From Promethearchaeota archaeon (GTDB taxonomy: Archaea > Asgardarchaeota > Lokiarchaeia > Sigyniarchaeales > SOKP01): 23,562 bases of DNA. The stretch's first letter is position 1. Each line of letters starts with the position of its first letter. The stretch covers positions 88,222 to 111,783 of the forward strand of contig JBHLLU010000004.1 in the NCBI GenBank assembly GCA_048938895.1, written 5' to 3'. The notes under the pieces were generated by a model, which saw only the letters and a program-made list of their open reading frames with translations, searched no databases and was not told the origin of the DNA. Shown one piece after another: positions 1 through 18,012 of the stretch. Position numbers and translations under genes: made by a program.

Positions 1-254
1 ATTTTAATCAACTCTTTTACGGTAATTCAATTCAGAAGATTTTTTTAAAGGATTGAATTAATTAATAATTTTTATGATATAATAATATTATTTGTTTTTT
101 TAATAATTAACGTTTTTCTGGAATTGTTGTATGTTATGGATAATAGATGTGAATAAATATAAAAATACGAAAAATATAATTTAAGTATAAAAGATATTAC
201 TAGTAATAAAAAAATTATACTAATTTTCAATAATAACAGAGGAATTGAAAGAAC

Positions 255-965
255 TTGGTTTCAAAAGAGCAAAAAAAAATCGAACGCGTAATAAATTTTA
301 TGAAGAAGGGATTAACTTCTTTAGCTGATGATCTCGAAGAAACTGTTAAAGGTATTAATGATTTCATTAAATCTTTGGCTAAAGCTCAGAAAGATTTGAA
401 GGAAGTGACTGTAGGTGAAGAAGTCCAAACTGTCAGTACTTCCTCTAAAAAGATCATAGCATCTTCATCTGGTGAGGCAAAAACAGCAGCAGCTAGTACT
501 CTATTCAGTCTTTTGAGTGGTGGTGGTGCATCTCCCGCACCAGCAACTTCTGCAGCCCCACCATTGACAGCAGCTCCGACTCCTCCAAGTAGTGGTGGAC
601 CTCCAAAAGCACCTCCTTCTGGTGGACCTCCAAAAGCTCCTCCAAGTGGTGGTGGACCTCCAGCTGCACCTCCTTCTGGTGGAGGACCCCCTAAAAGACC
701 TAATTTACCACCTGCACCAAAATTACCACCTGCAGCTCCTCCAAGTGGTGGTGGGCCTCCAGTTGCCCCACCTACTGGCGGACCTCCGAAGGCGCCTGCT
801 TTTGCTAAAAGACCTGCCGCACCGAGTGCCCCACCTAGTGGTGGACCCCCTAAACCTCCTGGTGCCCCAGCAGCAGCCCCACAAGCTGGTGGTGGTTTAA
901 GTTCTTTAAGAGATGAGATGTTAGACGAGTTAAACCGTTTGAAAAAAATCATGAGAGGAGAGTGA
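255..965 (+). CDS. Proline/glycine-rich protein: N-terminal coiled coil, PP[ST]GGPP repeats, C-terminal amphipathic helix ending in LKKI (WH2/VASP-like); putative actin regulator
   Basis: 236-aa ORF with TTG start at 255 and an in-frame ATG alternative at 300. Heptad-like N-terminus (LTSLADDLEETVKGINDFIKSLAKAQKDL), low-complexity P/G/A/S middle, C-terminus GGGLSSLRDEMLDELNRLKKIMRGE. A/T-rich third codon positions support this frame. The CDS is well supported; the function is inferred. Confidence 0.8.
   Translation: MVSKEQKKIERVINFMKKGLTSLADDLEETVKGINDFIKSLAKAQKDLKEVTVGEEVQTVSTSSKKIIASSSGEAKTAAASTLFSLLSGGGASPAPATSAAPPLTAAPTPPSSGGPPKAPPSGGPPKAPPSGGGPPAAPPSGGGPPKRPNLPPAPKLPPAAPPSGGGPPVAPPTGGPPKAPAFAKRPAAPSAPPSGGPPKPPGAPAAAPQAGGGLSSLRDEMLDELNRLKKIMRGE
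582..860 (+). repeat. Intragenic imperfect repeat, 7 copies of PP[ST](S)G2-3PP; the first four are tandem 27-30 nt units
   Basis: Units cctccaagtagtggtggacctccaaaagca / cctccttctggtggacctccaaaagct / cctccaagtggtggtggacctccagctgca / cctccttctggtggaggaccccctaaaaga, followed by three more dispersed copies. Confidence 0.9.
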
Positions 966-972
966 AGAAGCA

Positions 973-1022
973 TTACCAGAATCCCAATCTGGTAAATCAG
1001 ATCCGAGTTCCAAATAATCTGA
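973..1022 (+). other. Two adjacent stem-loops just 3' of the Pro-rich gene (possible 3'UTR structure or terminator)
   Basis: Perfect inverted repeats ttaccaga(973-980)/tctggtaa(988-995) and tcagat(997-1002)/atctga(1017-1022); T-rich tracts follow at about 1078-1110. Confidence 0.35.
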
Positions 1023-1395
1023 ACCGGGATATCGCTGGAAACAAAAACCAGAAAATTATTTATATATAATTATTACTATTTTTTGCTCTTTTACATTATA
1101 ATTTTTTTAACAAAAAAAGTAGATTTCAAGAATTAATCCATATTTGAATGATATCAGTTTTAAAATAAATAAAAATGATATCTCTATTTGGAGAGACATA
1201 CACTTAATAAACTTCTTTTATGGTACCTTATTGGAGATTTCTTTCATGAAACTATTTATCTTAAGAAAATTCTAACCAGTGAAATTGGGACTATTGTTCG
1301 CATAAGATTAATTAAAATATTTAAAATTATAATATAATAATTAAGTGTACATTATTAGAAATTTAATAGATTTATAGATTTTTTCGACGTTAAGT

Positions 1396-2517
1396 ATGAG
1401 AAATCTTACTATTGTAATGGACATCGGGCAATTTTCTACCAAAATAGGTTTTGCTGGAGAGGATTCTCCAAATCAAGTCTTTTTAACAATGGTTGGCAAA
1501 CCAAAATATCAGAGTGTGAGTATAGATTATGAACCCCGAAAATCCCAGAAAGATGAACTCTATGTTGGTGATGAGATTCAATCTATTGGACTATATAAAA
1601 TATTTCACCCTATAGAAAAAGGGATCATAACCGATTGGAAACATTTTGAAAATATATTAGATTACATCTTCTACAATCTAAGAGTTGATCCTACTCTAGT
1701 TAATGTACTCTTTGCTGTTCATCCTTTATTTCCATATTCAGATTTAAAAAAAATTTTTGAGCTATTTTTGGAAAAGTATCAATGCATGGCGTTCTATCCT
1801 GTCTTAGATTCTATGCTTACGTTATATTCGGGAGGATTTCAAACGGGATTAATAATTGAAATTGGTGATAGTAACACCAGAATTGTTCCTATTTATGAAG
1901 GTTACAAAATAGAACATGCAGTTAAGATTATAGATATCGGAGGAAGGGTATTAACACATTACATGGAAAAAATTTTAGAATCAATAGGGTGGTCAGTTGA
2001 TTCATCAATTCGCAGAGAATTAGTAAGAGTCCTAAAGGAAAAAGCATGTTTTGTTTCATTAGATTTTGCTGAAGACCTAAAAAGGAGTGAGCAATATAAT
2101 AAAGAATATTCATTACCAGACGGTTCTACCATCTCATTGCATAATGAGAGATTTATGGTTCCTGAGTTATTATTTAACCCTTCCACTGAATTAGAAGTTG
2201 ATTCCTTACCAGTTGCAATTATGGATGTAATTGAGGCATGTGACCTAGATATACGACCAGAATTGTTAAACAATATATTTTTATCGGGAGGTTCATCGAT
2301 GTTTCCCAATCTAAAATCCAGAATGTATCAAGAATTAGAATTGGAGTTAGCAAGAAGAAAAAAGAAAAACCAAGTTGTAAGGATTATTGCACCAAGAGAG
2401 AGAACTTTTTCTGTATGGGTAGGAGGCTCTATTTTGGCTATGATTCCAGAATTTTCAGAAAATTGGATATCTAGAGCAAAATATTTCAATGAAGGTATTC
2501 CTCCTAATTTATTATAA
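1396..2517 (+). CDS. Actin-family protein (divergent Asgard actin-related protein)
   Basis: 373 aa, colinear with actin motifs: MDIGQFSTKIGFAGEDSP (DNGSGxxKAGFAGDDAP), YVGDE, PIEKGIITDW, IVPIYEGY, GGRVLTHY, KEKACFVSLDF, YSLPDG, NERFMVPELLFNPS, CDLDIR, LSGGSSMFP, IIAPRERTFSVWVGGSILA. Confidence 0.97.
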   Translation: MRNLTIVMDIGQFSTKIGFAGEDSPNQVFLTMVGKPKYQSVSIDYEPRKSQKDELYVGDEIQSIGLYKIFHPIEKGIITDWKHFENILDYIFYNLRVDPTLVNVLFAVHPLFPYSDLKKIFELFLEKYQCMAFYPVLDSMLTLYSGGFQTGLIIEIGDSNTRIVPIYEGYKIEHAVKIIDIGGRVLTHYMEKILESIGWSVDSSIRRELVRVLKEKACFVSLDFAEDLKRSEQYNKEYSLPDGSTISLHNERFMVPELLFNPSTELEVDSLPVAIMDVIEACDLDIRPELLNNIFLSGGSSMFPNLKSRMYQELELELARRKKKNQVVRIIAPRERTFSVWVGGSILAMIPEFSENWISRAKYFNEGIPPNLL

Positions 2518-2599
2518 CTATTTTTAAGTGAAATTATGGTATTACTGCGATATTACATTTAAATATATTTTTCCACTCAATATTTACTCATAATATTAA

Positions 2600-2965
2600 T
2601 TGTCTCTTGTTAGGGTCCTTGAGAGTATGGAAGAATTCGAAAAGAATAAGTTTTATAGACCAAATTACTCCATTCTATTTAATAAAATTAAAGATATTAA
2701 AGCTCCAATTAAGAATGAGATCCTTATGTCATTATTAGATGGTCAATGGCATTCTGAGCTTGAGTTGATTAGAAAAACTAAAAAGCAACATGGATATATT
2801 GGAGCAGTCACGTTAGGAACAATGATAAATTCATTGAACCATATGATTCAAAATAACTATTTAGAAAAGAAGGTTGTTAATAGTAAACTTTACTACAAAA
2901 TTTCAGATAATTTTGTAGGTTTGACTAGAGCAGCATATCGATTTGATGCAAAAAAATTCTTTTAG
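2600..2965 (+). CDS. Small basic protein, probable winged helix-turn-helix DNA-binding protein
   Basis: 121 aa, TTG start with ATG alternative at 2627. Pattern EILMSLLDGQWHSELEL...TLGTMINSL...YLEKKVVNSKLYYKIS fits helix-helix-helix plus wing hairpin. Confidence 0.65.
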   Translation: MSLVRVLESMEEFEKNKFYRPNYSILFNKIKDIKAPIKNEILMSLLDGQWHSELELIRKTKKQHGYIGAVTLGTMINSLNHMIQNNYLEKKVVNSKLYYKISDNFVGLTRAAYRFDAKKFF

Positions 2966-2973
2966 AAAATTTT

Positions 2974-5148
2974 TTACTTTTTATTTGAGTTAGATGAATT
3001 GATTTCTTTTTTTATACATTTATCTTTAAAAATTCTGAAATCAACACAGTTAGAGCAGAAACCTTTCCCATTACGATCCCTAAGCCCCTCATTCCAACAT
3101 TTCGGACATAAATAATAATTATAATTTTTCCCATTTTTTTTGAGAGAAATTCTGAATATATTGAAATAACAAATCGAACATCTTGATTCTAATAATTTTA
3201 GGCTTCCATTTTTGGGCAGTGATAAATAATTCTTACATGCATCATCTGAGCAAACTAAAAATCTCTTGTTTTTTAAATTAATAAACTTCATAGGTGCTTG
3301 ATTACAAAATGGACAATTAGATGTTGTTAAGGAATTAGTATAACTTAATTTTATGTTTGTCGCTTTTTTTTCTATCGATATCTTAGTAGCAAGAAGTTTG
3401 TCAAATAAATTTAAAAATTCCTGCCTTATCTCATCCACAACTTCCTGCATTGTTCTTTTCTGTAATTGAATTTCCTCGAGCTTTTGTTCAACATGTTTTG
3501 TAAAATTTGGTTCTAGAAAAGGAAGCCATATTTTAATCAAATTCTCTATCAGAAAAACGCCTAAATCTGTTATTGAATATTGAGTTCTATCTCTACTTAT
3601 TAACTTACGAGTTTGAAGTAACTTTATAATAACTGGTCGTGTGGATTTGGTACCCAAATGATTTTTTTCCATAAGCTTTAATAAAGAAGTATCAGAATAC
3701 TGTGATGGGGGTTTTGTTTCTTTTTGAATTAGTAAAATTTCCTTTATTGGAACTTTATTACCAGTAACTTGGATATGTTCTTCATACTTAGGTTTTAAGA
3801 AGGGAGCAATATCTAAAAATCCTGCAGTAATTAATGAAACTCGTTGAGCTCTAAATGGCTCATCTTTGATTAATAAGTTTAATGTTTGAACAGATTCTAT
3901 TGCCTCACTGCCAAATAATGCTAGATAATGACGCGCTAGTAAGTTATAGACCTTCTTCTGTAGATCACTTTCAAACCTCGAATCATATTCTTCTAAACTT
4001 TCGAGAGGTGTGATAGGGGGATGATCTCCAGCATCTTTTTTCCCTTTTGTAGGAACAATTCGCTGATTTCCAAGTATAGTGTTTACAAATTTTCCATATT
4101 GAGAATGTGAAGAACATTTGTTTAAGATACTTATATGATCAAAATCAGGTTTATAAACGTCACTGTCAGTTCTGGGATATGATATTATCTTATTCAGGTA
4201 CAATGCGTTCATAGTGGTCAAAGCAACATTAGCAGAGATCTTTAAGTTCTTTGTAAGGAGCATTAACGCCTTTGAGGTATTTAATGGAGTAGGGGGGGAC
4301 TTTGTTTTTAATTTTTGAGGTGAATCAACAATTTTTGCCATTTTTTCATCTTTAATTTTTTGAAATATTTGATTTGCTTTAGATTTCAAGGTATTTTTAA
4401 AGGGATTTAAGTTATGGTGCGCTTGAAAAGTCCCTTTATCGTGAAACAACACGGCATCTATTAAATAATATGGTTCTGGGACAAAATTCTTGATCTCCTG
4501 ATCTCTTAAATACAATAAATAAAGAAGACTAGTTTGAACTCTTCCAATAGAAGTAAACTGAACCCCATATCTTACCAACAGAGGACGTAGTATATTAGTG
4601 ACTTCTCTCGTGCTAGAAAAGCCTATAAATGCATCAATAATAGCTCTAGCTTCACCTGACTCACCCCAGCTGTATTTAGGACTGATAAGATTATTGAATT
4701 TATTAGTTATTTCATGCTTTTGTAAAGAACTCAGCCATAATTGGGAAACTTTTATATTTGGGTTTACTTGTTTAATAAATGGAAGTGCATCAATAAATCC
4801 AATATTACATCCCTCAATATCTGCATCTGTACCAATGATGCATTGATTTGAAAGTTTGGAATATTCTTTCAAAACTTTTATGAATGGTTGAGCATAAGAT
4901 ATCGGAAATTTCCTAATGGCATGAGGATTGGTAATAATCTCTCTTGCAGGGTGTTTAGTCCAACTTTTATATCTCTCAGTATTTCTATATTCGAGAATGT
5001 GACCACGTAAAGGAATTACATATAAGTTTTTTGAAGGAACAGAATATATACTCAAAGATTTTGTTTTTTTGATTGTTTTAACTGAACCAAGAGCATTTGC
5101 AATTGCTTCAGCTGCTTTTTTCTTCTCAGCTATTATTAATGTGGCCAT
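2974..5148 (-). CDS. topA: DNA topoisomerase type IA (topoisomerase III class) with C-terminal Cys-rich zinc-binding region
   Basis: TOPRIM motifs IIAEK, GHI and DADIEG; SIGRVQT; catalytic Tyr324 in ISYPRTDS; DAGDHPPITP; LGTKSTR; C-terminal CPFC, CSDDAC, CSIC, CPKC, CSNC. Confidence 0.96.
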   Translation of the reverse strand: MATLIIAEKKKAAEAIANALGSVKTIKKTKSLSIYSVPSKNLYVIPLRGHILEYRNTERYKSWTKHPAREIITNPHAIRKFPISYAQPFIKVLKEYSKLSNQCIIGTDADIEGCNIGFIDALPFIKQVNPNIKVSQLWLSSLQKHEITNKFNNLISPKYSWGESGEARAIIDAFIGFSSTREVTNILRPLLVRYGVQFTSIGRVQTSLLYLLYLRDQEIKNFVPEPYYLIDAVLFHDKGTFQAHHNLNPFKNTLKSKANQIFQKIKDEKMAKIVDSPQKLKTKSPPTPLNTSKALMLLTKNLKISANVALTTMNALYLNKIISYPRTDSDVYKPDFDHISILNKCSSHSQYGKFVNTILGNQRIVPTKGKKDAGDHPPITPLESLEEYDSRFESDLQKKVYNLLARHYLALFGSEAIESVQTLNLLIKDEPFRAQRVSLITAGFLDIAPFLKPKYEEHIQVTGNKVPIKEILLIQKETKPPSQYSDTSLLKLMEKNHLGTKSTRPVIIKLLQTRKLISRDRTQYSITDLGVFLIENLIKIWLPFLEPNFTKHVEQKLEEIQLQKRTMQEVVDEIRQEFLNLFDKLLATKISIEKKATNIKLSYTNSLTTSNCPFCNQAPMKFINLKNKRFLVCSDDACKNYLSLPKNGSLKLLESRCSICYFNIFRISLKKNGKNYNYYLCPKCWNEGLRDRNGKGFCSNCVDFRIFKDKCIKKEINSSNSNKK

Positions 5149-5306: not shown

Positions 5307-8300
5307 TTAAGTAGGTAAAGTAAATATAAAAGACGATCCTTTATTAACTCCTTCTGAAGTTGCGTATATTTTACCTCCATGGAGATTAACAATTCCTTTT
5401 GTGATATAGAGTCCTAGACCAGTCCCACTATCTTTTATTGTGACTCTACTATCATCAATCGGCTGTTTTATTCTTTCAAATTTCTTGAATAGCTTTTTTA
5501 ATTCTTCTTGAGTAAGCCCAATTCCATTGTCCTTCACCTCAAAGATATAACCATCTTTATTTTTTTTTGCAGATATTTCAATCCAACCATATTCATGTGT
5601 AAATTTAATAGCATTTGAAATTAAATTAGTAAAAACAGTAAAAATGCGCGTAGCATCTACATTTAGGATTATTTCATGATTAATATTCAAGATAATCTCA
5701 AGGTTTTTTTCATTAATCAAATAACTCAATTCATCAAGGCAATCGTTTATAAGCTTACTCACATCCACGCGTTCTTTATGTAAATCTACTTTATCTTCAT
5801 CTATTTTCATAACTTCTAGAAGTTGATCCATTAATAATTCTAATCTTTTAACATTCCGTTGCACAGTCTTTAAATCCTCAATAATCGCAGGGGTTAATTG
5901 ATTTGTATATTTCATTAGAATATAATCAGTATATCCTGAAATTGAAATCAATGGTGTCTTCAGCTCATGAGCAGCCATAGTGATAAAATCATTTTTAATC
6001 TGGTCCAATTTCATCAGTTCTATGTTCTGTTCTCTTAACTTTCTTTCAGATTCCATTAATTCTTGTTCTAAAGTGAATTTTTCAGTGATATCGATGAATG
6101 TACCTTCAATTTCGATTGGTTCTTCCTCAGAATTATAAATTACATGAGCATTTATGCTCAATGTAATAATATTGCCATCAACATTCTTTACTTGTGCAAT
6201 GAAATTTCTCAACACTCCATATTCTTCTAGTTGTTGATAATATTTTTTGTATGTTTCTGGATTGGCAAACATATTAGATGATGGGACTCCTATAAGGCTA
6301 TCTTCTAGATTTAATCCTAAAATCCTTTTAGCAGCCTGATTATGGAAAAGTAATTTTCCTTGATATTCTCCCCAATAAAATCCTACATCTAAATTATTTA
6401 CCATATTTCGATACTTTTTTTCTGATTCTTTAAGTTGATTTTCCATTTCCTGATTTTCTGTGATATCACGTATAATAGTAATCACCTGTTCTACTTTTCC
6501 CTCGTGAAAGATAGGGATTTTTCTAGTTTCTGTGATTACTTCCTGATCTTCGAGGTGGGTACTTTCTGTAGTTATTAGAGTTATCCCTCGCTCAAAGACA
6601 TCATTATATTCACTATTAATCTTGGGGGGTAAGAAAGGAAATACATCTAATACTTCTTTCCCTTGAATATTTGTAGGCATATTTAGTCGCTCAAGCCAAC
6701 CCTCAAACTCTTTATTAAAAAGAATTATTTTTAGATCCCTATCAACAACATGTAATGGATCTCCTAGCGAGTCAATTGTCGTACGATATTGATATACAGA
6801 TTCCCTTAATCTCTCTTCAGCATTTTTTTTTTCTGTAACATCTTGAATAATGATTTGGATGATTGTCTCTTCCCCCAATTCAATCGTGGAAATTTCTGAT
6901 TGAACCCATGCACTTGTACCATCTTTTTTGTAAATTTCTACTAATTTTGGTATGACTTTTGAATCTAAATCTCCTCGTTTTGATAACAATTCAGGTAGTT
7001 TTCTTAAAACATTTTTTGTATCAGATGGGTATACTCCAATTAAAGAAAAATAGTTATTTCCAATAAGATCTTTTTTATTGTACCCAAAAATCGCCGATGT
7101 AGTAGAATTTATATCTATTATCATGCCCCTTGAATTTAAGAGAACGATACCATAAGGTGAATTTTCATATAAATGTCGAAATTTTTCCTCAGATTCTCTT
7201 AATTCTTTCGTTCTTTCCATTACTATATGTTCTAACTTATCATTTAAATTTCTCAATTCCTCTTCAGATTCTTTCAAATCGGTAATATCTTGAATAATTG
7301 CCTGGGTGAGTGTTTTATCTCCTATTTTTACTAAAGAGCTAGTAATGGCTAGCCAGATGGTTTTTCCATCAAGTCTTGTTATCTGAACTTCTAGAGGACC
7401 GAGTCTCTCACCATTTAAGAACTGATCAAATCTGTCTTTCAAATATGAAATAATCTTTTCAGGACGTTGAAGGAATTTTAAAACATCTACAAATTTCTTT
7501 CCGATAATATCTTCTATTTTCAAAACCGAAAGCAACCGATTAATAGTCGAATTACAGTCTATAATAATCCCGTCTTCATCCAATAACCAGATAGCATAAG
7601 GAGATTTTTCAAACAAATGGTAATATTTTTGTTCAGATTCCTTAAGTTTTTGTTCTAGTAAATACTTTTCAGTGATATCTCGTGCTACCCCACTAAAACC
7701 GATTTTATTTCCGTTAGAATCATAATTTAAGTATATAGAAGATTCACAAGTGACCACACTCCCATTCTTGTTAGAAAATTGAAATTGAAAAGTTAAATTT
7801 GGTATTTCTGTTTCTAAAACTTGAGTGTAAGCGTCTATTAGTTTTGCTTTATTTTGTTCATCAACAAATTTCTGAAAATTTACCCCCATTAATTCTTCTC
7901 TTTGATAGCCAATGAGTTCCATGAAAGCATCGTTGAAAAAGGTAAAATTTCCCCGTAAATCCACTTCAAAAAAAGTTTCTTTAACATTCTCAAGAATACC
8001 TCTGTATTTTTCTTCAGATTCTTTTAGTTTTTGATCAGCGATTTTCCTCTCAGTGATATCTTCATATGTAACAAGAATTCCCACTACATTATGTTTAAAA
8101 TCAAGTAAAGGAATCCGGTTGATTTCAAACCAAACCAGGGTTCCGTCTGAATTAGTCATAGATTCAATTCTATTAAATTCAGGTTTATTATTTTTTATTA
8201 CTAGTCGTTCACATTCCTCAATGTAATTTTTTTTGTCTAAAATCCAATTTAGTTCATTCCCTGTTTTCCCTATAATAGATACTGAGCTTTCTAAAGCATT

Positions 8301-8864
8301 TATTCTGGAAAAATTCGAATTGCACCCTAAAAAGACCAAATCTTTGTCTTTCCAATATATTAATTGAGGGATATTGTTGATTACTAGCTCCAACATTTCT
8401 CTTGATTTTTGAACAGCATTTATTCCCTCTTTTGACTGAATTAACTTCCAATATTTAATTTCTGGTAGAGAATCTGCTAATTGAGAGTATCTAGCCTGAC
8501 TCTGCTTGAATTCATTCTCAAAATATTTATATCTTGCGATGTCATGGCATAGTAGAATTACCCTTGTTGTATTATCCTCAACAAATCGTTTTCCATTTAA
8601 TTCATACCATCTAAATTGGTCAGATAATGTTCTAATTCTTAATTCTGATGTGCTCTTTCCTAATTTAAATGTACTTTTTATAAACCTGCTGGCATTTTTA
8701 GAATCCTCAGGATGTATAAAATCATTTATATGTGGTTTTTGCTTGAAATCTTTGAAATTTGCGTATTCAATGAAAAACCTTTCATTTAGAATAAAGATTG
8801 GATCATCAATATTTTCTGAGATAATGGTATTAATTTTGCTTATATTATTTATTGTACTGGTCAT
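5307..8864 (-). CDS. Cytoplasmic multi-PAS (about 7 domains) sensor histidine kinase, HisKA + HATPase_c
   Basis: H-box AAHELKTPL, N-box NLISNAIKFT, G1 DNGIG, F-box LFKKF, G2 GTGLGLYI. Repeated PAS/PAC ends D[IV]T[ED] followed by L[KR]ESE.K[YF] linkers. No transmembrane segment or receiver domain seen. Confidence 0.96.
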   Translation of the reverse strand: MTSTINNISKINTIISENIDDPIFILNERFFIEYANFKDFKQKPHINDFIHPEDSKNASRFIKSTFKLGKSTSELRIRTLSDQFRWYELNGKRFVEDNTTRVILLCHDIARYKYFENEFKQSQARYSQLADSLPEIKYWKLIQSKEGINAVQKSREMLELVINNIPQLIYWKDKDLVFLGCNSNFSRINALESSVSIIGKTGNELNWILDKKNYIEECERLVIKNNKPEFNRIESMTNSDGTLVWFEINRIPLLDFKHNVVGILVTYEDITERKIADQKLKESEEKYRGILENVKETFFEVDLRGNFTFFNDAFMELIGYQREELMGVNFQKFVDEQNKAKLIDAYTQVLETEIPNLTFQFQFSNKNGSVVTCESSIYLNYDSNGNKIGFSGVARDITEKYLLEQKLKESEQKYYHLFEKSPYAIWLLDEDGIIIDCNSTINRLLSVLKIEDIIGKKFVDVLKFLQRPEKIISYLKDRFDQFLNGERLGPLEVQITRLDGKTIWLAITSSLVKIGDKTLTQAIIQDITDLKESEEELRNLNDKLEHIVMERTKELRESEEKFRHLYENSPYGIVLLNSRGMIIDINSTTSAIFGYNKKDLIGNNYFSLIGVYPSDTKNVLRKLPELLSKRGDLDSKVIPKLVEIYKKDGTSAWVQSEISTIELGEETIIQIIIQDVTEKKNAEERLRESVYQYRTTIDSLGDPLHVVDRDLKIILFNKEFEGWLERLNMPTNIQGKEVLDVFPFLPPKINSEYNDVFERGITLITTESTHLEDQEVITETRKIPIFHEGKVEQVITIIRDITENQEMENQLKESEKKYRNMVNNLDVGFYWGEYQGKLLFHNQAAKRILGLNLEDSLIGVPSSNMFANPETYKKYYQQLEEYGVLRNFIAQVKNVDGNIITLSINAHVIYNSEEEPIEIEGTFIDITEKFTLEQELMESERKLREQNIELMKLDQIKNDFITMAAHELKTPLISISGYTDYILMKYTNQLTPAIIEDLKTVQRNVKRLELLMDQLLEVMKIDEDKVDLHKERVDVSKLINDCLDELSYLINEKNLEIILNINHEIILNVDATRIFTVFTNLISNAIKFTHEYGWIEISAKKNKDGYIFEVKDNGIGLTQEELKKLFKKFERIKQPIDDSRVTIKDSGTGLGLYITKGIVNLHGGKIYATSEGVNKGSSFIFTLPT

Positions 8865-16258: not shown

Positions 16259-17827
16259 TTAAATTGATTGTTCCTGCTTTACAAAAAAATCTGCTGCTAA
16301 CTCAACATCCTCCATGGTTAAGGGTCTTCCTAGAGATTGCTCTAAATCGTTAACCAAGAGTTCACATAATTTTAAACTAAGTGTACTACCTTTTTCCGAA
16401 ATTATTTTTTGTACTTTTTTAGCATAATCAGATATTTTCGGTTTTTTAACGTCTTTAGCAATGTCTTCATGTGGTGAAAATAATTCTATTGGCATTTTTA
16501 ATTCAGATTTTTTTGGTTTGGTTTCACTACTTTCCTCAAATATAACTGGTTTGGCAAGTTTAACAGATTTAGAGGGAATTTCTGAGGGTTTTATAAGTTT
16601 TAATCCAGAGGGTTCAGTCTCAAGCTTTTGAAATGATACCATTTTACTAGGTTTTTCTTCAGGTGAGGGTTCTGGCACTTCTTCAGTCAACTTTTGAGGA
16701 ATGGATTCAGTTGAAGATCCTGATGCAGGAAGGGGCTGCACTGTTATTTTTGTTTTGAATTTTAATTCTTTTGGGATTTCAAATTCAATTTCTTTTGTAG
16801 ATTCTTTTCTCATTTCTTTTAGTTCTTTTAACTTATTATTTAAGTCTTGTACCTTCTTCTGAAAGATGGTACTTCGCTCAAAATCCTTGTAGGTAGTCGT
16901 AATTTGAACTAATTCTCTATATTTTGCTAATGCTTGAATTATATTCCCTACAATTACTAAATTTTCAGCCTCATTTACCATATCTTCAAAATCTTCCGGT
17001 AATTCTTCTTTTAATCCTAAAGATTGTTTTATTAATGCGTGAATCTCTAATTTAGCATCAGCAGAGTTTAAAGATATTTCCTCAAATTCAGTAATATTGA
17101 TTTCATTTTTAATCCGTCTTAGATCTTCATCTTCTATTAAATCTCTTTTATTCCCAATTGTTAATAACTTAGAATGTCTGCCTTCTAGGTTCTTTATATC
17201 CAGAAAATGATTTAGTATTTTCAAATGGTAATTTGCCAAATTGAATATGAGTATGATTAAATCAGATCCACTAACAAATTTGGACCATAATAAAGAGAAA
17301 TTATCTTTGAGTTGAAAATCCCAAATTTCGAAGGTTAATTCATCAATTTCAAAAGTAGAGGATTTTGCAAAGTCCATCATTGTTTCTTCTTCATTTCTAA
17401 GGATGTTATAAAGTGTTGTTTTACCCGCATTAGTAGGACCTATGATAGTTATTTTCGAATGCATATCTTTTTGAATTTGATTTAAGAATTCTAAAAATTC
17501 TTCGAATAATTCTTCTGATTCTTTAATTCTCATGGGATCAGGAAATAATTCCTGAAATTTCTTGATAATCTTTATCATGATCGTTTCTATATCTTGAGGA
17601 GTATCAATAAGGTCAGTTACTAATAAAAAGTACAATCCTTTTGTACCTCTATGAAAAATTTGAAAATTAGAAATTTTCCTATTCATTGTTTTTCCGGGTA
17701 TCGGCATATCCATATATTTTTTAATAGTCTCAAGAACATTATGCAATTCTTCATTTCCAAAAGCTATAGCATAATCCTTCAGAAAAATATGTTCTTTTTC
17801 ATTAAAAATATGAAGCTGGCGCAACAT
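16259..17827 (-). CDS. Multidomain protein: longin-like N-terminus, degenerate Ras-superfamily small GTPase, helical/coiled-coil segment, P/E/K/S-rich linker, small C-terminal helical domain
   Basis: G1 GPTNAGKTT, G3 position WDFQL, SGSDLIILIFN, G4 GNKRD, G5 position ISL. N-terminal LRQLHIF...HIFLKDY...LYFLLVTD..D....IE.IM.KI.KKF.ELF fits a longin pattern. Likely start is the ATG at 17827 rather than 17902. Confidence 0.8.
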   Translation of the reverse strand: MLRQLHIFNEKEHIFLKDYAIAFGNEELHNVLETIKKYMDMPIPGKTMNRKISNFQIFHRGTKGLYFLLVTDLIDTPQDIETIMIKIIKKFQELFPDPMRIKESEELFEEFLEFLNQIQKDMHSKITIIGPTNAGKTTLYNILRNEEETMMDFAKSSTFEIDELTFEIWDFQLKDNFSLLWSKFVSGSDLIILIFNLANYHLKILNHFLDIKNLEGRHSKLLTIGNKRDLIEDEDLRRIKNEINITEFEEISLNSADAKLEIHALIKQSLGLKEELPEDFEDMVNEAENLVIVGNIIQALAKYRELVQITTTYKDFERSTIFQKKVQDLNNKLKELKEMRKESTKEIEFEIPKELKFKTKITVQPLPASGSSTESIPQKLTEEVPEPSPEEKPSKMVSFQKLETEPSGLKLIKPSEIPSKSVKLAKPVIFEESSETKPKKSELKMPIELFSPHEDIAKDVKKPKISDYAKKVQKIISEKGSTLSLKLCELLVNDLEQSLGRPLTMEDVELAADFFVKQEQSI

Positions 17828-18012
17828 AGCTGTCTTAACATAATCTAATAATTTCGATATTAAAAAAAAAGAAATACTAATTAATAATTCTTTATAATTC
17901 ATTCACATTTAGATTAAGCAATTTGCATGAGAAGAGAAAAATAATAAAAAATATTAGATTTCAATAATTTTATCTCCATAGACCAAGTATAATTTTATTT
18001 GAACTTCCTAAA

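What the first reader, a model, noticed from the sequence alone, without database searches (positions are those of the whole stretch)
255..2517. Candidate archaeal nucleation-promoting-factor-like protein encoded next to an actin-related protein
Seen: the gene just upstream of the actin homologue, on the same strand, has an N-terminal coiled coil, seven Pro-Gly repeats and the C-terminus GGGLSSLRDEMLDELNR-LKKI. Established: eukaryotic WASP/WAVE/Ena-VASP regulators combine an oligomerisation or targeting module, a Pro-rich region and a WH2 motif (amphipathic helix + LKK[TV]); the VASP F-actin-binding helix also follows a Gly run. Inference: this may be a primitive WASP/VASP-like actin regulator partnered with the neighbouring ARP, i.e. 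a filament nucleation or elongation module. Caveats: the genes are 430 nt apart and may be transcribed separately, the helix-to-LKK spacing is shorter than in canonical WH2, and there is no acidic-Trp motif.
Basis: partly seen in the sequence, partly recalled or inferred. Interest (0 to 1): 0.85.

Follow-up and report, generated by a model that had tools for sequence, protein, structure and literature searches.

The report
Conserved Asgard proline-rich tether protein
A widespread but unstudied Asgard-archaeal protein made of two highly conserved helices joined by a proline-rich thread is paired across the phylum with a small unknown partner gene, not with the actin-like gene beside it, and whether it recruits actin or something else is still untested.

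Summary
ORF 255-965 (236 aa) has a 46-residue N-terminal helix, seven GGPP repeats and the stated C-terminus. An actin paralogue lies 430 nt downstream on the same strand.

The ORF belongs to an unnamed family matched in 272 of 400 genomes of its phylum. L229 and K230 of "LKKI" are at least 90% conserved.

- **ARP linkage:** it holds in one GTDB family (76 of 80 loci, as part of a larger syntenic block) and in 0 of 19 loci outside it. The ARP orthologue itself is confined to that lineage.
- **WH2 or VASP membership:** no Pfam or PDB search supports it. The motif lies inside a continuous predicted helix, 2-7 residues from the C-terminus.
- **A rival resemblance:** the helix resembles the C-terminal MIM1-like helices of Asgard ESCRT-III about as well as it resembles the VASP F-actin-binding site.

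The conserved neighbour is a small 88-aa α/β protein ("SP90"), adjacent in three gene orientations. Its model is confident and no solved fold matched it convincingly.

The Pro-rich region plus terminal helix also ends membrane-anchored proteins in other lineages.

Best reading: a modular tether whose terminal helix docks a conserved partner. Actin binding remains possible (about 0.25) but untested, because the co-fold job was not run.

The parts
1..26 (-). 5' end of the gene for the small partner protein SP90. The rest lies left of the window, at G000:C37:88053-88247, and is interrupted by a run of N in the genome copy.
   Evidence: An HMM of SP90 hits C37:88053-88247(-), with the C-terminal stretch VVIKRKDEFYIPHASILFRLISA. 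The minus strand of window 1-26 reads ITVKELIK, which aligns with the family's N-terminus. In 68 of 71 close loci with enough flank, SP90 sits divergently upstream.
27..254 (.). AT-rich spacer between the divergent SP90 gene and the Pro-rich protein gene. It may hold a shared promoter region, which is inference. AGAGGA lies at 240-245, ahead of the TTG start.
   Evidence: Sequence. The divergent spacing in relatives is 169-2729 nt, median 275, with 62 of 68 at 500 nt or less.
255..965 (+). Gene for the 236-aa helix / Pro-rich / helix protein, the subject of the finding.
264..401 (+). Residues 4-49: a single long helix of coiled-coil type, nearly invariant in close relatives. It is probably an oligomerisation or partner-binding element.
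   Evidence: AlphaFold2 gives H4-49 with pLDDT about 86-96. PDB profile hits are only to coiled coils. Invariant columns are listed.
474..515 (+). Residues 74-87: a short conserved amphipathic helix (AKTAAASTLFSLLS). L83 is invariant and L87 is at least 90% conserved phylum-wide.
537..896 (+). Residues 95-214: a low-confidence region, taken as disordered, with seven GGPP units. It carries two linear motifs kept in close relatives: NLPPAPKLPP (residues 150-159, nt 702-731) and P-x-FAKRP (residues 181-187).
   Evidence: pLDDT is about 46-70 with no secondary structure.
897..956 (+). Residues 215-234: the C-terminal amphipathic helix LSSLRDEMLDELNRLKKIMR. It is the most conserved element and is read as a one-face docking motif.
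   Evidence: AlphaFold2 gives H215-234 with pLDDT about 86-94. M222 is invariant, and R219, E221, E225, L226, L229 and K230 are at least 90% conserved across 46 diverse members. It lies 2-7 residues from the end in 22 of 23 representatives that carry the pattern.
1396..2517 (+). Actin paralogue (ARP), 373 aa. It is a lineage-restricted neighbour and is not a conserved partner of the family.
   Evidence: Pfam Actin 303.6 bits. It is 43% identical to the genome's Lokiactin. Its best PDB matches are conventional actins. Distribution is, and synteny.

Best explanation
ORF 255-965 encodes a member of an undescribed protein family found across the phylum. I read it as a modular tether.

**Anatomy (shown)**
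- A 46-residue N-terminal helix.
- A short second helix.
- About 120 low-confidence, presumably disordered, residues of GGPP-type repeats carrying conserved linear motifs.
- A 20-residue amphipathic helix at the extreme C-terminus.

**How it most likely works (inferred)**
- The long N-terminal helix oligomerises and/or binds the small α/β protein SP90, whose gene travels with this gene. Together they form the assembly or localisation end.
- In at least three other lineages that end is replaced by transmembrane segments plus a coiled coil.
- The Pro-rich thread is a flexible, possibly multivalent spacer.
- The terminal helix docks, through one face, onto a conserved cytosolic protein. That face is a hydrophobic stripe (L218, M222, L226, L229, M233) flanked by E221 and E225 on one side and R219 and K230 on the other.

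**The ARP**
The neighbouring ARP is a lineage-specific neighbour and is not the partner.

**The docking target is not shown.** My odds are:
- Lokiactin (monomer or filament, VASP-FAB or WH2-like): about 0.25.
- A Vps4-type MIT domain (MIM1-like): about 0.2.
- SP90, or self-association: about 0.15.
- Something not yet considered: the rest.
For: **A real, conserved family**
- 214 homologues at E up to 0.01, all unnamed.
- 40 representatives at 50% clustering.
- Matches in 272 of 400 genomes of the phylum, and in 69 of 90 high-quality ones.
- The same architecture in divergent members.

**Structure:** helices 4-49, 74-87 and 215-234, with no regular structure between them.

**One-face conservation:** the phylum-wide conserved helix residues fall within about 180° of the helical wheel, around the hydrophobic stripe (angles). 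The amphipathic moment is reached by 61 of 2000 shuffles.

**SP90 linkage**
- SP90 is within the locus in 68 of 71 close loci and 15 of 20 distant loci that have enough flank.
- It occurs in three arrangements: divergent upstream 94, convergent downstream 12, same strand 3. This is counted over 130 loci, some of which are the same genomes fetched twice.
- A divergent copy lies convergently about 560 nt downstream in one more family.
- The phyletic patterns agree. SP90 versus the family HMM: f1 122 vs 119 of 134; f3 13 vs 14 of 14; f19 16 vs 16 of 19; f26 3 vs 3 of 3; f27 4 vs 4 of 4.

**Portable C-terminal module:** three loci, in families where no sampled genome matched SP90 (f16, f28) or very few did (f31 group), encode transmembrane or coiled-coil proteins of 319, 305 and 573 aa. 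Each ends in a Pro-rich stretch plus the same helix. SP90 matched 0 of 22 genomes in f16, 0 of 5 in f28, and 3 of 89 in the f31-f33 group.

**ARP not the partner:**
Against: - No binding of any kind was tested. The one co-fold job was not run.
- The link between SP90 and the N-terminal helix is inferred from co-occurrence, and from only three examined membrane-anchored loci.
- In one sister family (f3) both genes are present but lie far apart in complete genomes: 25 kb in G135 and about 260 kb in G138. Adjacency is therefore not obligatory.
- Inside the close family every position of both helices is nearly invariant, including the face that varies across the phylum. A simple one-face docking model does not explain this. 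It could mean a buried bundle.
- Weak family-HMM hits (E 1e-5 to 1e-11) in several families may partly reflect Pro-rich composition. Only five such genomes were inspected.
Confidence: 0.55

Rival explanations
1. Actin assembly or tethering factor acting on Lokiactin. This is like Ena/VASP or a C-terminal-WH2 protein and does not depend on the ARP. The oligomeric or membrane-anchored N-terminus concentrates several Pro-rich arms, and their terminal helix binds G- or F-actin to nucleate, elongate or anchor filaments.
For: - The architecture parallels Ena/VASP: a Pro-rich region, then a Gly run, then a helix, plus an oligomerising helix.
- The helix matches the human VASP F-actin-binding site 259[20 protein letters not shown]278 at 6 of 16 positions in one ungapped register. 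The sequence comes from passages of PMC10340426; the alignment is by hand.
- L229 and K230 are at least 90% conserved, and position 232 is always hydrophobic.
- Membrane-anchored versions exist, as expected for cortex-bound actin regulators.
- Passages of PMC13716822 name no formin or Ena/VASP-type polymerase among the actin regulators found in Asgard archaea, only profilins and gelsolins. A factor of this kind would fill that gap.
Against: - There is no WH2 profile hit and no PDB sequence hit to WH2, VASP or thymosin chains.
- Only two residues separate the last helix hydrophobic residue (L226) from L229, and AlphaFold2 draws one continuous helix through LKKIM.
- Prolines come in doublets, not in long runs.
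- Lokiarchaeal profilins were reported not to bind the VASP polyproline peptide (passages of PMC8410842).
- The Lokiactin co-immunoprecipitation described in PMC13716822 names profilin, gelsolins, an ARF GTPase and BAR proteins only. Its supplementary table could not be read.
- No actin-related gene lies near the family gene outside one GTDB family.
Confidence: 0.25
2. MIM1-like adaptor. The terminal helix is a MIT-interacting motif that recruits Vps4, or another MIT-domain protein, to wherever the N-terminal end sits. This would be like the C-terminal helices of ESCRT-III subunits and of non-ESCRT-III MIM1 carriers.
For: - The helix lies 2-7 residues from the C-terminus, after a Pro-rich linker.
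- It is predicted as one continuous helix.
- ESCRT-III C-termini were read from the window's genome and five other Asgard genomes...KLQDEIEKLRKELQS...ALKKEIEKLKKELDM...TKRELERLKKEVKE...LREEVKKLKKKLSEG and others.
- Most of those ESCRT-III C-termini share the pattern hydrophobic-x-x-E-hydrophobic-x-x-L-basic-basic with M222-x-x-E225-L226-x-x-L229-K230-K231. This covers five of the seven most conserved helix residues.
- Asgard Vps2/24/46 proteins are reported to carry Leu/Ile-rich MIM1-like C-terminal helices (passages of PMC7240154).
- The genome encodes Vps4 with a MIT domain of 59.9 bits.
Against: - The shared pattern is generic for Glu/Lys-rich amphipathic helices, and no statistic was computed for it.
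- No genomic linkage to ESCRT genes was seen in any inspected neighbourhood.
- The eukaryotic MIM1 consensus, recalled as (D/E)xxLxxRLxxL(K/R), is only partly met, with E in place of the central R.
- Binding was not tested. The co-fold that included the MIT domain was not run.
Confidence: 0.2
3. One reading: a WASP/WAVE-type nucleation-promoting factor that activates, or acts with, the neighbouring ARP as a dedicated pair.
For: The two genes share a strand and are adjacent in 76 of 80 loci of close relatives. The ARP is highly conserved there, with a median identity of 79% against 65% for the topoisomerase.
Against: - The gap varies from 129 to 4937 nt, with a median of 921.
- The wider block, including the topoisomerase and the histidine kinase, is kept as well.
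- 0 of 19 loci outside the family have any actin-family gene within 7 kb.
- The ARP orthologue is confined to that lineage, while the Pro-rich protein is found in many more.
- There is no C/A (acidic-Trp) region.
Confidence: 0.05
4. A closed structural complex. The N- and C-terminal helices, from one chain or several, bundle with each other and/or with SP90, so the terminal helix has no external target.
For: - Within the close family all faces of both helices are nearly invariant.
- The helix is acidic in its first half and basic in its second, which would suit antiparallel pairing. This is read from the sequence.
- SP90 co-occurs with the soluble form of the protein.
Against: - The same terminal helix ends membrane-anchored proteins that lack the N-terminal helix, in lineages where SP90 was not found.
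- The AlphaFold2 monomer does not pack the helices (pTM 0.23). This is weak evidence.
Confidence: 0.12

Closest known systems
Ena/VASP proteins (EVH1, Pro-rich region, EVH2 with G- and F-actin-binding sites, tetramerising coiled coil)
   Same: - A Pro/Gly-rich region is followed by a Gly run and a short amphipathic helix that ends in basic residues.
- There is a separate helix suited to oligomerisation.
- 6 of 16 residues are identical to the VASP F-actin-binding site printed in PMC10340426 (hand alignment).
   Different: - There is no EVH1 domain and no Pfam hit.
- The order is reversed: the helix suited to oligomerisation is at the N-terminus.
- There is one actin-site-like helix, not two, and it lies at the extreme C-terminus.
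- Prolines occur in doublets, not long runs.
- No homology was detected.
WH2 domains (Pfam PF02205), including the WH2-like LKKT-type motifs described inside Asgard two-domain gelsolins (PMC9433394)
   Same: An amphipathic helix is followed by L-K-K-I. The L and the first K are conserved.
   Different: - No profile match was found.
- The helix-to-LKK spacing is two residues, and the motif is predicted to lie inside a continuous helix.
- It stands free at a C-terminus instead of sitting between gelsolin domains.
MIM1 helices of ESCRT-III (Vps2/24/46 class), reported as MIM1-like in Asgard archaea (PMC7240154)
   Same: - It is an amphipathic helix at the extreme C-terminus, after a flexible linker.
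- It shares the pattern hydrophobic-x-x-E-hydrophobic-x-x-L-basic-basic with most of the Asgard ESCRT-III C-termini read here.
   Different: - There is no ESCRT-III (Snf7) core.
- The Pro-rich linker is far longer.
- There is no linkage to ESCRT genes.
- Binding to a MIT domain is untested.
WASP/WAVE nucleation-promoting factors
   Same: An N-terminal helical element, a Pro-rich region and a WH2-like end.
   Different: - There are no central or acidic (Trp) regions; the protein ends four residues after LKKI.
- The link to the ARP is lineage-restricted.
- Whether an Arp2/3-type complex is present was not tested.

Membership tests
WH2 domain (PF02205) | Match to the family profile | tested here: not met
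   Pfam hmmscan of the last 31 aa at E up to 10 gave 0 families. With 46 family members scanned at E up to 1, WH2 is not among the 25 families shown. The list runs by number of members matched and its last rows match one member each, so no unshown family matched more than one member. Short motifs are hard for profile methods, so this lowers membership only.
WH2 domain (PF02205) | About three helical turns, then a short linker, then an extended LKK[TV] (consensus recalled; a 16-19 aa motif according to PMC10340426) | tested here: inconclusive
   Only N227 and R228 lie between L226 and L229. The AlphaFold2 monomer model draws one helix over 215-234. A monomer model does not show the bound state.
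WH2 domain (PF02205) | Conserved L-basic-basic-(T/V/I) motif | tested here: met
   L229 and K230 are at least 90% conserved in 46 diverse members. Among 28 representatives with the motif, the variants are LKKI 15 and LKSI 3, with LKGI, LKSV, LKTI, LKKV, LRHV, IKSM, LKTL, LRAL, LKKL and IKEI at 1 each.
WH2 domain (PF02205) | [quoted passage not shown] | not testable with these tools
   The single co-fold job (Lokiactin, SP90, Vps4 MIT, C-terminal 41 aa) came back NOT FOLDED because one chain looks eukaryotic.
Ena/VASP | EVH1 domain and an EVH2 region with G-actin site, F-actin site and C-terminal tetramerisation coil | tested here: not met
   No Pfam family at E up to 0.01. Only weak coiled-coil-type hits on the N-terminus at E up to 1. 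There is one actin-site-like helix only.
WASP/WAVE nucleation-promoting factors | WH2 followed by central and acidic (Trp) regions | tested here: not met
   The sequence ends LKKIMRGE. No member examined has an acidic-Trp tail.
WASP/WAVE nucleation-promoting factors | Functional coupling to an ARP, tested here as conserved gene linkage | tested here: not met
   76 of 80 loci in one GTDB family, inside a larger conserved block. 0 of 19 outside it. The ARP orthologue is confined to that lineage.
MIM1-bearing MIT ligands | Amphipathic helix at the extreme C-terminus | tested here: met
   The pattern ends 2-7 residues from the C-terminus in 22 of 23 representatives that carry it. The helix spans 215-234 of 236.
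MIM1-bearing MIT ligands | Consensus (D/E)xxLxxRLxxL(K/R) (recalled) or its Asgard form | tested here: inconclusive
   The hydrophobic positions and the final basic residue fit (M222, L226, L229, K230). The central R is E225, as in most Asgard ESCRT-III C-termini read here. No statistic was computed.
MIM1-bearing MIT ligands | Binds a MIT domain | not testable with these tools
   The co-fold job was not run.
ESCRT-III (Snf7, PF03357) | Match to the family profile or core helical hairpin domain | tested here: not met
   No Snf7 hit for the protein. The genome's own ESCRT-III is elsewhere, on contig C75.

The most novel reading that the evidence does not exclude
This family is a missing actin-assembly factor of Asgard archaea. 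An oligomeric protein, held in place by SP90 or in some lineages by a membrane anchor, would use its flexible Pro-rich arms to present a terminal VASP-FAB/WH2-like helix to Lokiactin. It would thereby nucleate, elongate or anchor filaments at the cell cortex and in protrusions. That would make it an archaeal analogue, or even a forerunner, of Ena/VASP and C-terminal-WH2 proteins, with SP90 as a new kind of small cofactor.
Probability: 0.2. Interest if true: 0.9.

Novelty: new variant of a known kind. Interest (0 to 1): 0.6.

Why it matters
Asgard archaea build dynamic actin-based protrusions, yet the regulators named in print are profilins and gelsolins. Passages of PMC13716822 name no formin or Ena/VASP-type polymerase among them.

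Here is a two-gene module, found widely across the phylum, that nobody has named:
- a helix / Pro-rich / helix protein whose ends are almost invariant;
- a small α/β protein with a confident model that no solved structure matched convincingly.

If the terminal helix binds actin, the module would be the first candidate filament-assembly or anchoring factor of the archaeal relatives of eukaryotes. If it binds a Vps4 MIT domain, it would be a new ESCRT adaptor. Either result bears on how eukaryote-like cell biology is organised in these archaea, and it can be tested directly with a 25-residue peptide.

Tried and rejected
- **Co-folding.** It came back NOT FOLDED because a chain looks eukaryotic.
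- **Related loci with the diverse alignment.** The search for related loci with alignment A2 failed because it has no sufficiently conserved stretch. I used the closer alignment A1 instead.
- **Family libraries for the protein.** Pfam and NCBIfam gave only sub-threshold coiled-coil-type hits.
- **ESM Atlas.** Only unnamed archaeal clusters came up. The Atlas's own model is poor (pLDDT 0.51), and all its structure rows have TM below 0.5.
- **SP90 annotation and fold.**
  - No Pfam or NCBIfam family.
  - 0 PDB sequence hits.
  - Atlas: hypothetical only.
  - Foldseek against the PDB: 0 matches at E up to 0.001, best 0.27.
  - VIA-align over 48,161 chains: best Z 4.4, none at 5 or more.
  - A missing match does not show that the fold is new.
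- **Expression.** No RNA holder was listed for window 1-2600, and no reads were laid.
- **Neighbourhoods.** Those of distant family members (110 proteins) and of membrane-anchored or divergent members (32 proteins) hold housekeeping genes only. There are no actin, profilin, gelsolin or ESCRT genes.
- **MIM2 idea.** That NLPPAPKLPP is a MIM2-type motif was considered from a recalled consensus and was not tested.
- **Membrane-binding helix.** This was considered and set aside, because the helix is highly charged and the membrane-anchored variants already have anchors.
- **Literature.** Four full-text searches found no paper that describes this family:
  - WH2 + Asgard + actin;
  - Asgard + polyproline + profilin;
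  - Asgard, VASP, Lokiactin;
  - Asgard + Vps4 + MIT domain + MIM.

  The family has no name to search by, and supplements were closed.


Full report
**What is there**

The window is G000:C37:88222-111783, from a 4.65-Mb genome with about 30% G+C. It carries typical Asgard genes:
- an actin paralogue;
- a 547-aa protein with an Arf/Ras-like GTPase domain;
- HEAT-repeat proteins;
- a PAS-rich histidine kinase.

ORF 255-965 (+) encodes 236 aa from a TTG codon. Homologues start at the same residue with ATG, GTG or TTG, so the start at 255 is sound. The DNA shows a 27-30 nt tandem array at 582-701. The actin-family gene follows at 1396-2517 on the same strand.

It is also more than chance:
- 41 of 4947 six-frame ORFs of at least 100 aa in this genome have L[KR][KR][IVT] in their last 12 residues;
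- only this ORF and its antisense frame combine that with three or more GGPP.

**The family**

- A word-indexed search found 214 homologues at E up to 0.01. Every one that a source names is called "hypothetical protein".
- Among the 120 listed, 119 end with the same 25 residues, differing only by D/E, S/G, N/T and by one residue in length. The other one is a truncated record.
- An exhaustive HMMER search over 1.84 billion cluster representatives found 40 proteins at E up to 0.001.
- Divergent members keep the whole plan. They have a long N-terminal helix, a short motif of the form L-hydrophobic-x-x-L-x-G, GPP-type repeats, and a terminal helix of the form hydrophobic-[RK]-x-E-M-L-x-E-L-x-x-L-K-x-hydrophobic-hydrophobic.
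- In a 46-member alignment L83 and M222 are invariant. R219, E221, E225, L226, L229 and K230 are at least 90% conserved.
- A family HMM matched 272 of 400 genomes sampled across the phylum, and 69 of 90 high-quality ones. Matches are strong in coded families f1-f7, f19, f26 and f27, which includes genomes of 1.3-1.4 Mb. They are weaker elsewhere, and there are none in f15 (0 of 12), f24 (0 of 7) and f25 (0 of 5).

**Structure**

AlphaFold2 with the 46-sequence alignment gives:
- one helix over residues 4-49 (pLDDT about 86-96);
- a weaker helix over 74-87;
- no regular structure over 88-214;
- one continuous helix over 215-234 (pLDDT about 86-94).

The family profile finds only designed coiled coils and GCN4 in the PDB, on profile positions 16-60. 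The "LKKI" therefore lies inside a predicted helix and is not an extended segment after one.

In 80 loci from one-genome-per-species contigs (all close relatives; 53-84% identity for this protein), the ARP lies downstream on the same strand in 76. The four without it comprise two that lack downstream DNA and two with 2-4 kb of other sequence.

The next genes are kept as well:
- the winged-helix-like gene in 74 of 80;
- the topoisomerase in 70 of 80;
- usually the histidine kinase.

The gap between this gene and the ARP ranges from 129 to 4937 nt, with a median of 921. This is general synteny within one GTDB family.

I then took 19 loci from nine other coded families, with 7 kb on each side. 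None has any actin-family gene at tblastn E up to 1e-5, while the one extra locus from the same family does.

The ARP is 43% identical to the genome's Lokiactin, and its nearest solved structures are conventional actins. Orthologues of at least 63% identity were found in 23 of 25 sampled genomes of family f1. A sister family has 50-55%, and everywhere else the best hit is at most 47%, which is the Lokiactin level.

The Pro-rich protein is therefore much more widespread than this ARP and cannot depend on it.

**The real conserved neighbour**

In the distant loci a small ORF of about 90 aa kept turning up next to the gene. I call it SP90.

- An HMM of SP90 finds it immediately upstream of the window's gene, on the opposite strand, at C37:88053-88247. 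It runs over the window's left edge: the minus strand of window 1-26 reads its N-terminal residues. A run of N interrupts it in the genome copy.
- With enough flank available, SP90 is within the locus in 68 of 71 close loci. There it is divergent, at 169-2729 nt with a median of 275. It is also there in 15 of 20 distant loci.
- Over all 130 loci scanned, some of which are the same genomes fetched twice, the arrangements are divergent upstream 94, convergent downstream 12 and same strand 3.
- A divergent copy lies convergently about 560 nt downstream in yet another family, f21.
- Adjacency kept through three different orientations is much stronger evidence of a functional tie than the ARP synteny.
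- The phyletic patterns agree: SP90 is in 181 of 400 genomes, in the same families that hold the strong matches of the Pro-rich protein.
- The tie is not absolute. In complete genomes of family f3 both genes exist but lie 25 kb or more apart.

SP90 has 436 homologues, all unnamed, and no Pfam or NCBIfam family. Its model is confident: pLDDT 92.8, pTM 0.84, topology α-β-β-α-β-β-β.

No solved structure matched that model convincingly:
- Foldseek's best E-value is 0.27.
- The best Z over 48,161 chains is 4.4.
- No profilin, gelsolin/cofilin, roadblock or MIT chain appears among the rows listed. Families that are not listed are not excluded.

**A portable C-terminal module**

I inspected five genomes with weaker matches.
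- Two (f20, f21) have the same soluble architecture.
- Three (f31, f28, f16) encode proteins of 319, 305 and 573 aa. These have one or many hydrophobic transmembrane-like segments (judged by eye), a coiled-coil stretch, a Pro-rich stretch and the same terminal helix.

SP90 matched no sampled genome of f16 (0 of 22) or f28 (0 of 5), and 3 of 89 in the f31-f33 group.

From these three loci I infer that the Pro-rich thread plus the helix is the common working end. I also infer that the long N-terminal helix with SP90 is one way of placing that end, and a membrane anchor is another.

Their neighbourhoods hold ribose-5-phosphate isomerase, a PIN-ATPase-KH protein and tRNA-intron endonuclease. No cytoskeletal or ESCRT genes are there.

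**What the terminal helix could bind**

*For actin:*
- The layout recalls Ena/VASP.
- In one ungapped register the helix shares 6 of 16 residues with the human VASP F-actin-binding site printed in PMC10340426. That site also follows a Gly run (the alignment is by hand).

*Against membership in WH2:*
- No profile hit for the last 31 aa, or for any of the 46 members, in the lists shown.
- No PDB sequence hit to WH2, VASP or thymosin chains.
- A two-residue spacing between the helix and LKK, and a continuous predicted helix.
- Proline doublets instead of long runs. Passages of PMC8410842 report that Lokiarchaeal profilins do not bind the VASP polyproline peptide.
- The Lokiactin co-immunoprecipitation in PMC13716822 names profilin, gelsolins, an ARF GTPase and BAR proteins. 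I could not see its supplementary table, which may or may not list this protein.

*For a MIT-domain target:*
- The helix sits 2-7 residues from the C-terminus in 22 of 23 representatives.
- Its conserved positions (M222, E225, L226, L229, K230, K231) fit the pattern hydrophobic-x-x-E-hydrophobic-x-x-L-basic-basic. I read that pattern at most of the C-termini of ESCRT-III proteins from this genome and five other Asgard genomes.
- PMC7240154 describes such C-terminal helices as MIM1-like.
- That pattern is generic for Glu/Lys-rich helices and I computed no statistic, so this is a resemblance of about the same weight as the VASP one.

*Where the conserved residues sit:*
- The phylum-wide conserved residues lie on one half of the helical wheel, as expected for a helix that docks in a groove.
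- Within the close family, however, every position is fixed. One-face docking does not explain that.

The one co-fold job that could have separated these readings was not run.

**Verdict**

Actin binding itself remains open.

My best reading is a modular tether that works with SP90 and presents a terminal docking helix. My odds for the target are:
- actin, about 0.25;
- a MIT domain, about 0.2;
- SP90 or self-association, about 0.15;
- something else, the rest.

The family, its partner and the membrane-anchored variants were not found described in any paper returned by four full-text searches. Supplements were closed, and the family has no name to search by.

Noticed in passing
window 1396-2517 (+): In the BLASTP alignment with the genome's Lokiactin, the ARP has D where Lokiactin has the Q of ...ATQAV.... 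It has E-I-G-D-S-N-T-R where Lokiactin has D-I-G-D-G-V-S-H. By recalled actin numbering these are Q137 and H161, the residues tied to ATP hydrolysis, so the paralogue may hydrolyse ATP poorly or differently.
   Followed up: no
window 2600-2965 (+), 2974-5148 (-), 5307-8864 (-): A 121-aa protein with no Pfam hit, a type IA topoisomerase and a 1185-aa PAS-rich histidine kinase stay in the same order after the ARP in most close relatives. The 121-aa gene is kept in 74 of 80 loci and the topoisomerase in 70 of 80. This shows how far plain synteny reaches in this lineage.
   Followed up: partly
window 16259-17902 (-): A 547-aa protein has an Arf/Ras-like GTPase domain at residues 140-277. A weak match to the clathrin-adaptor small chain (longin-like) covers residues 26-123, with E 0.006, below Pfam's cut-off.
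   Followed up: no
G000:C88:47949-48419 (-), outside the window: A 157-aa open frame holds an internal helix, FLRDAMINELENLKSIF, that resembles the family's terminal helix. It is followed by two Cys pairs that look like a zinc ribbon. It is a weak hit of the family HMM, E 8e-4.
   Followed up: no
P0122 (549 aa): One representative carries the family region at about residues 57-290. It sits between an N-terminal hydrophobic segment and a C-terminal extension of about 260 aa. Here the helix (LRDEMLTELDRLKGIM) is internal, 290 residues from the end. This could be a real fusion or a gene-calling artefact.
   Followed up: no
coded genomes G158-G161, G172, G174 and others: Several genomes of the close family have two to four matches to SP90 on different contigs, so SP90 has paralogues that are not next to the Pro-rich protein gene.
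   Followed up: no
L156, L157, L158: In three different coded families the membrane-anchored variants share neighbours: ribose-5-phosphate isomerase A in two of the three, and a PIN / T2SSE-type ATPase / KH protein and tRNA-intron endonuclease in two of the three. tRNA-intron endonuclease also lies two genes from the soluble form in L128 and L130. This hints that the anchored and soluble forms occupy the same ancestral position.
   Followed up: partly
G000:C37 about 88120-88221, just left of the window: The genome copy has a run of N inside the SP90 gene. The visible N-terminal residues (ITVKELIK, directly after a TGA) lack an ordinary start codon at the position where relatives have M-P-K-R. 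The gene's 5' end in this assembly is therefore uncertain.
   Followed up: partly
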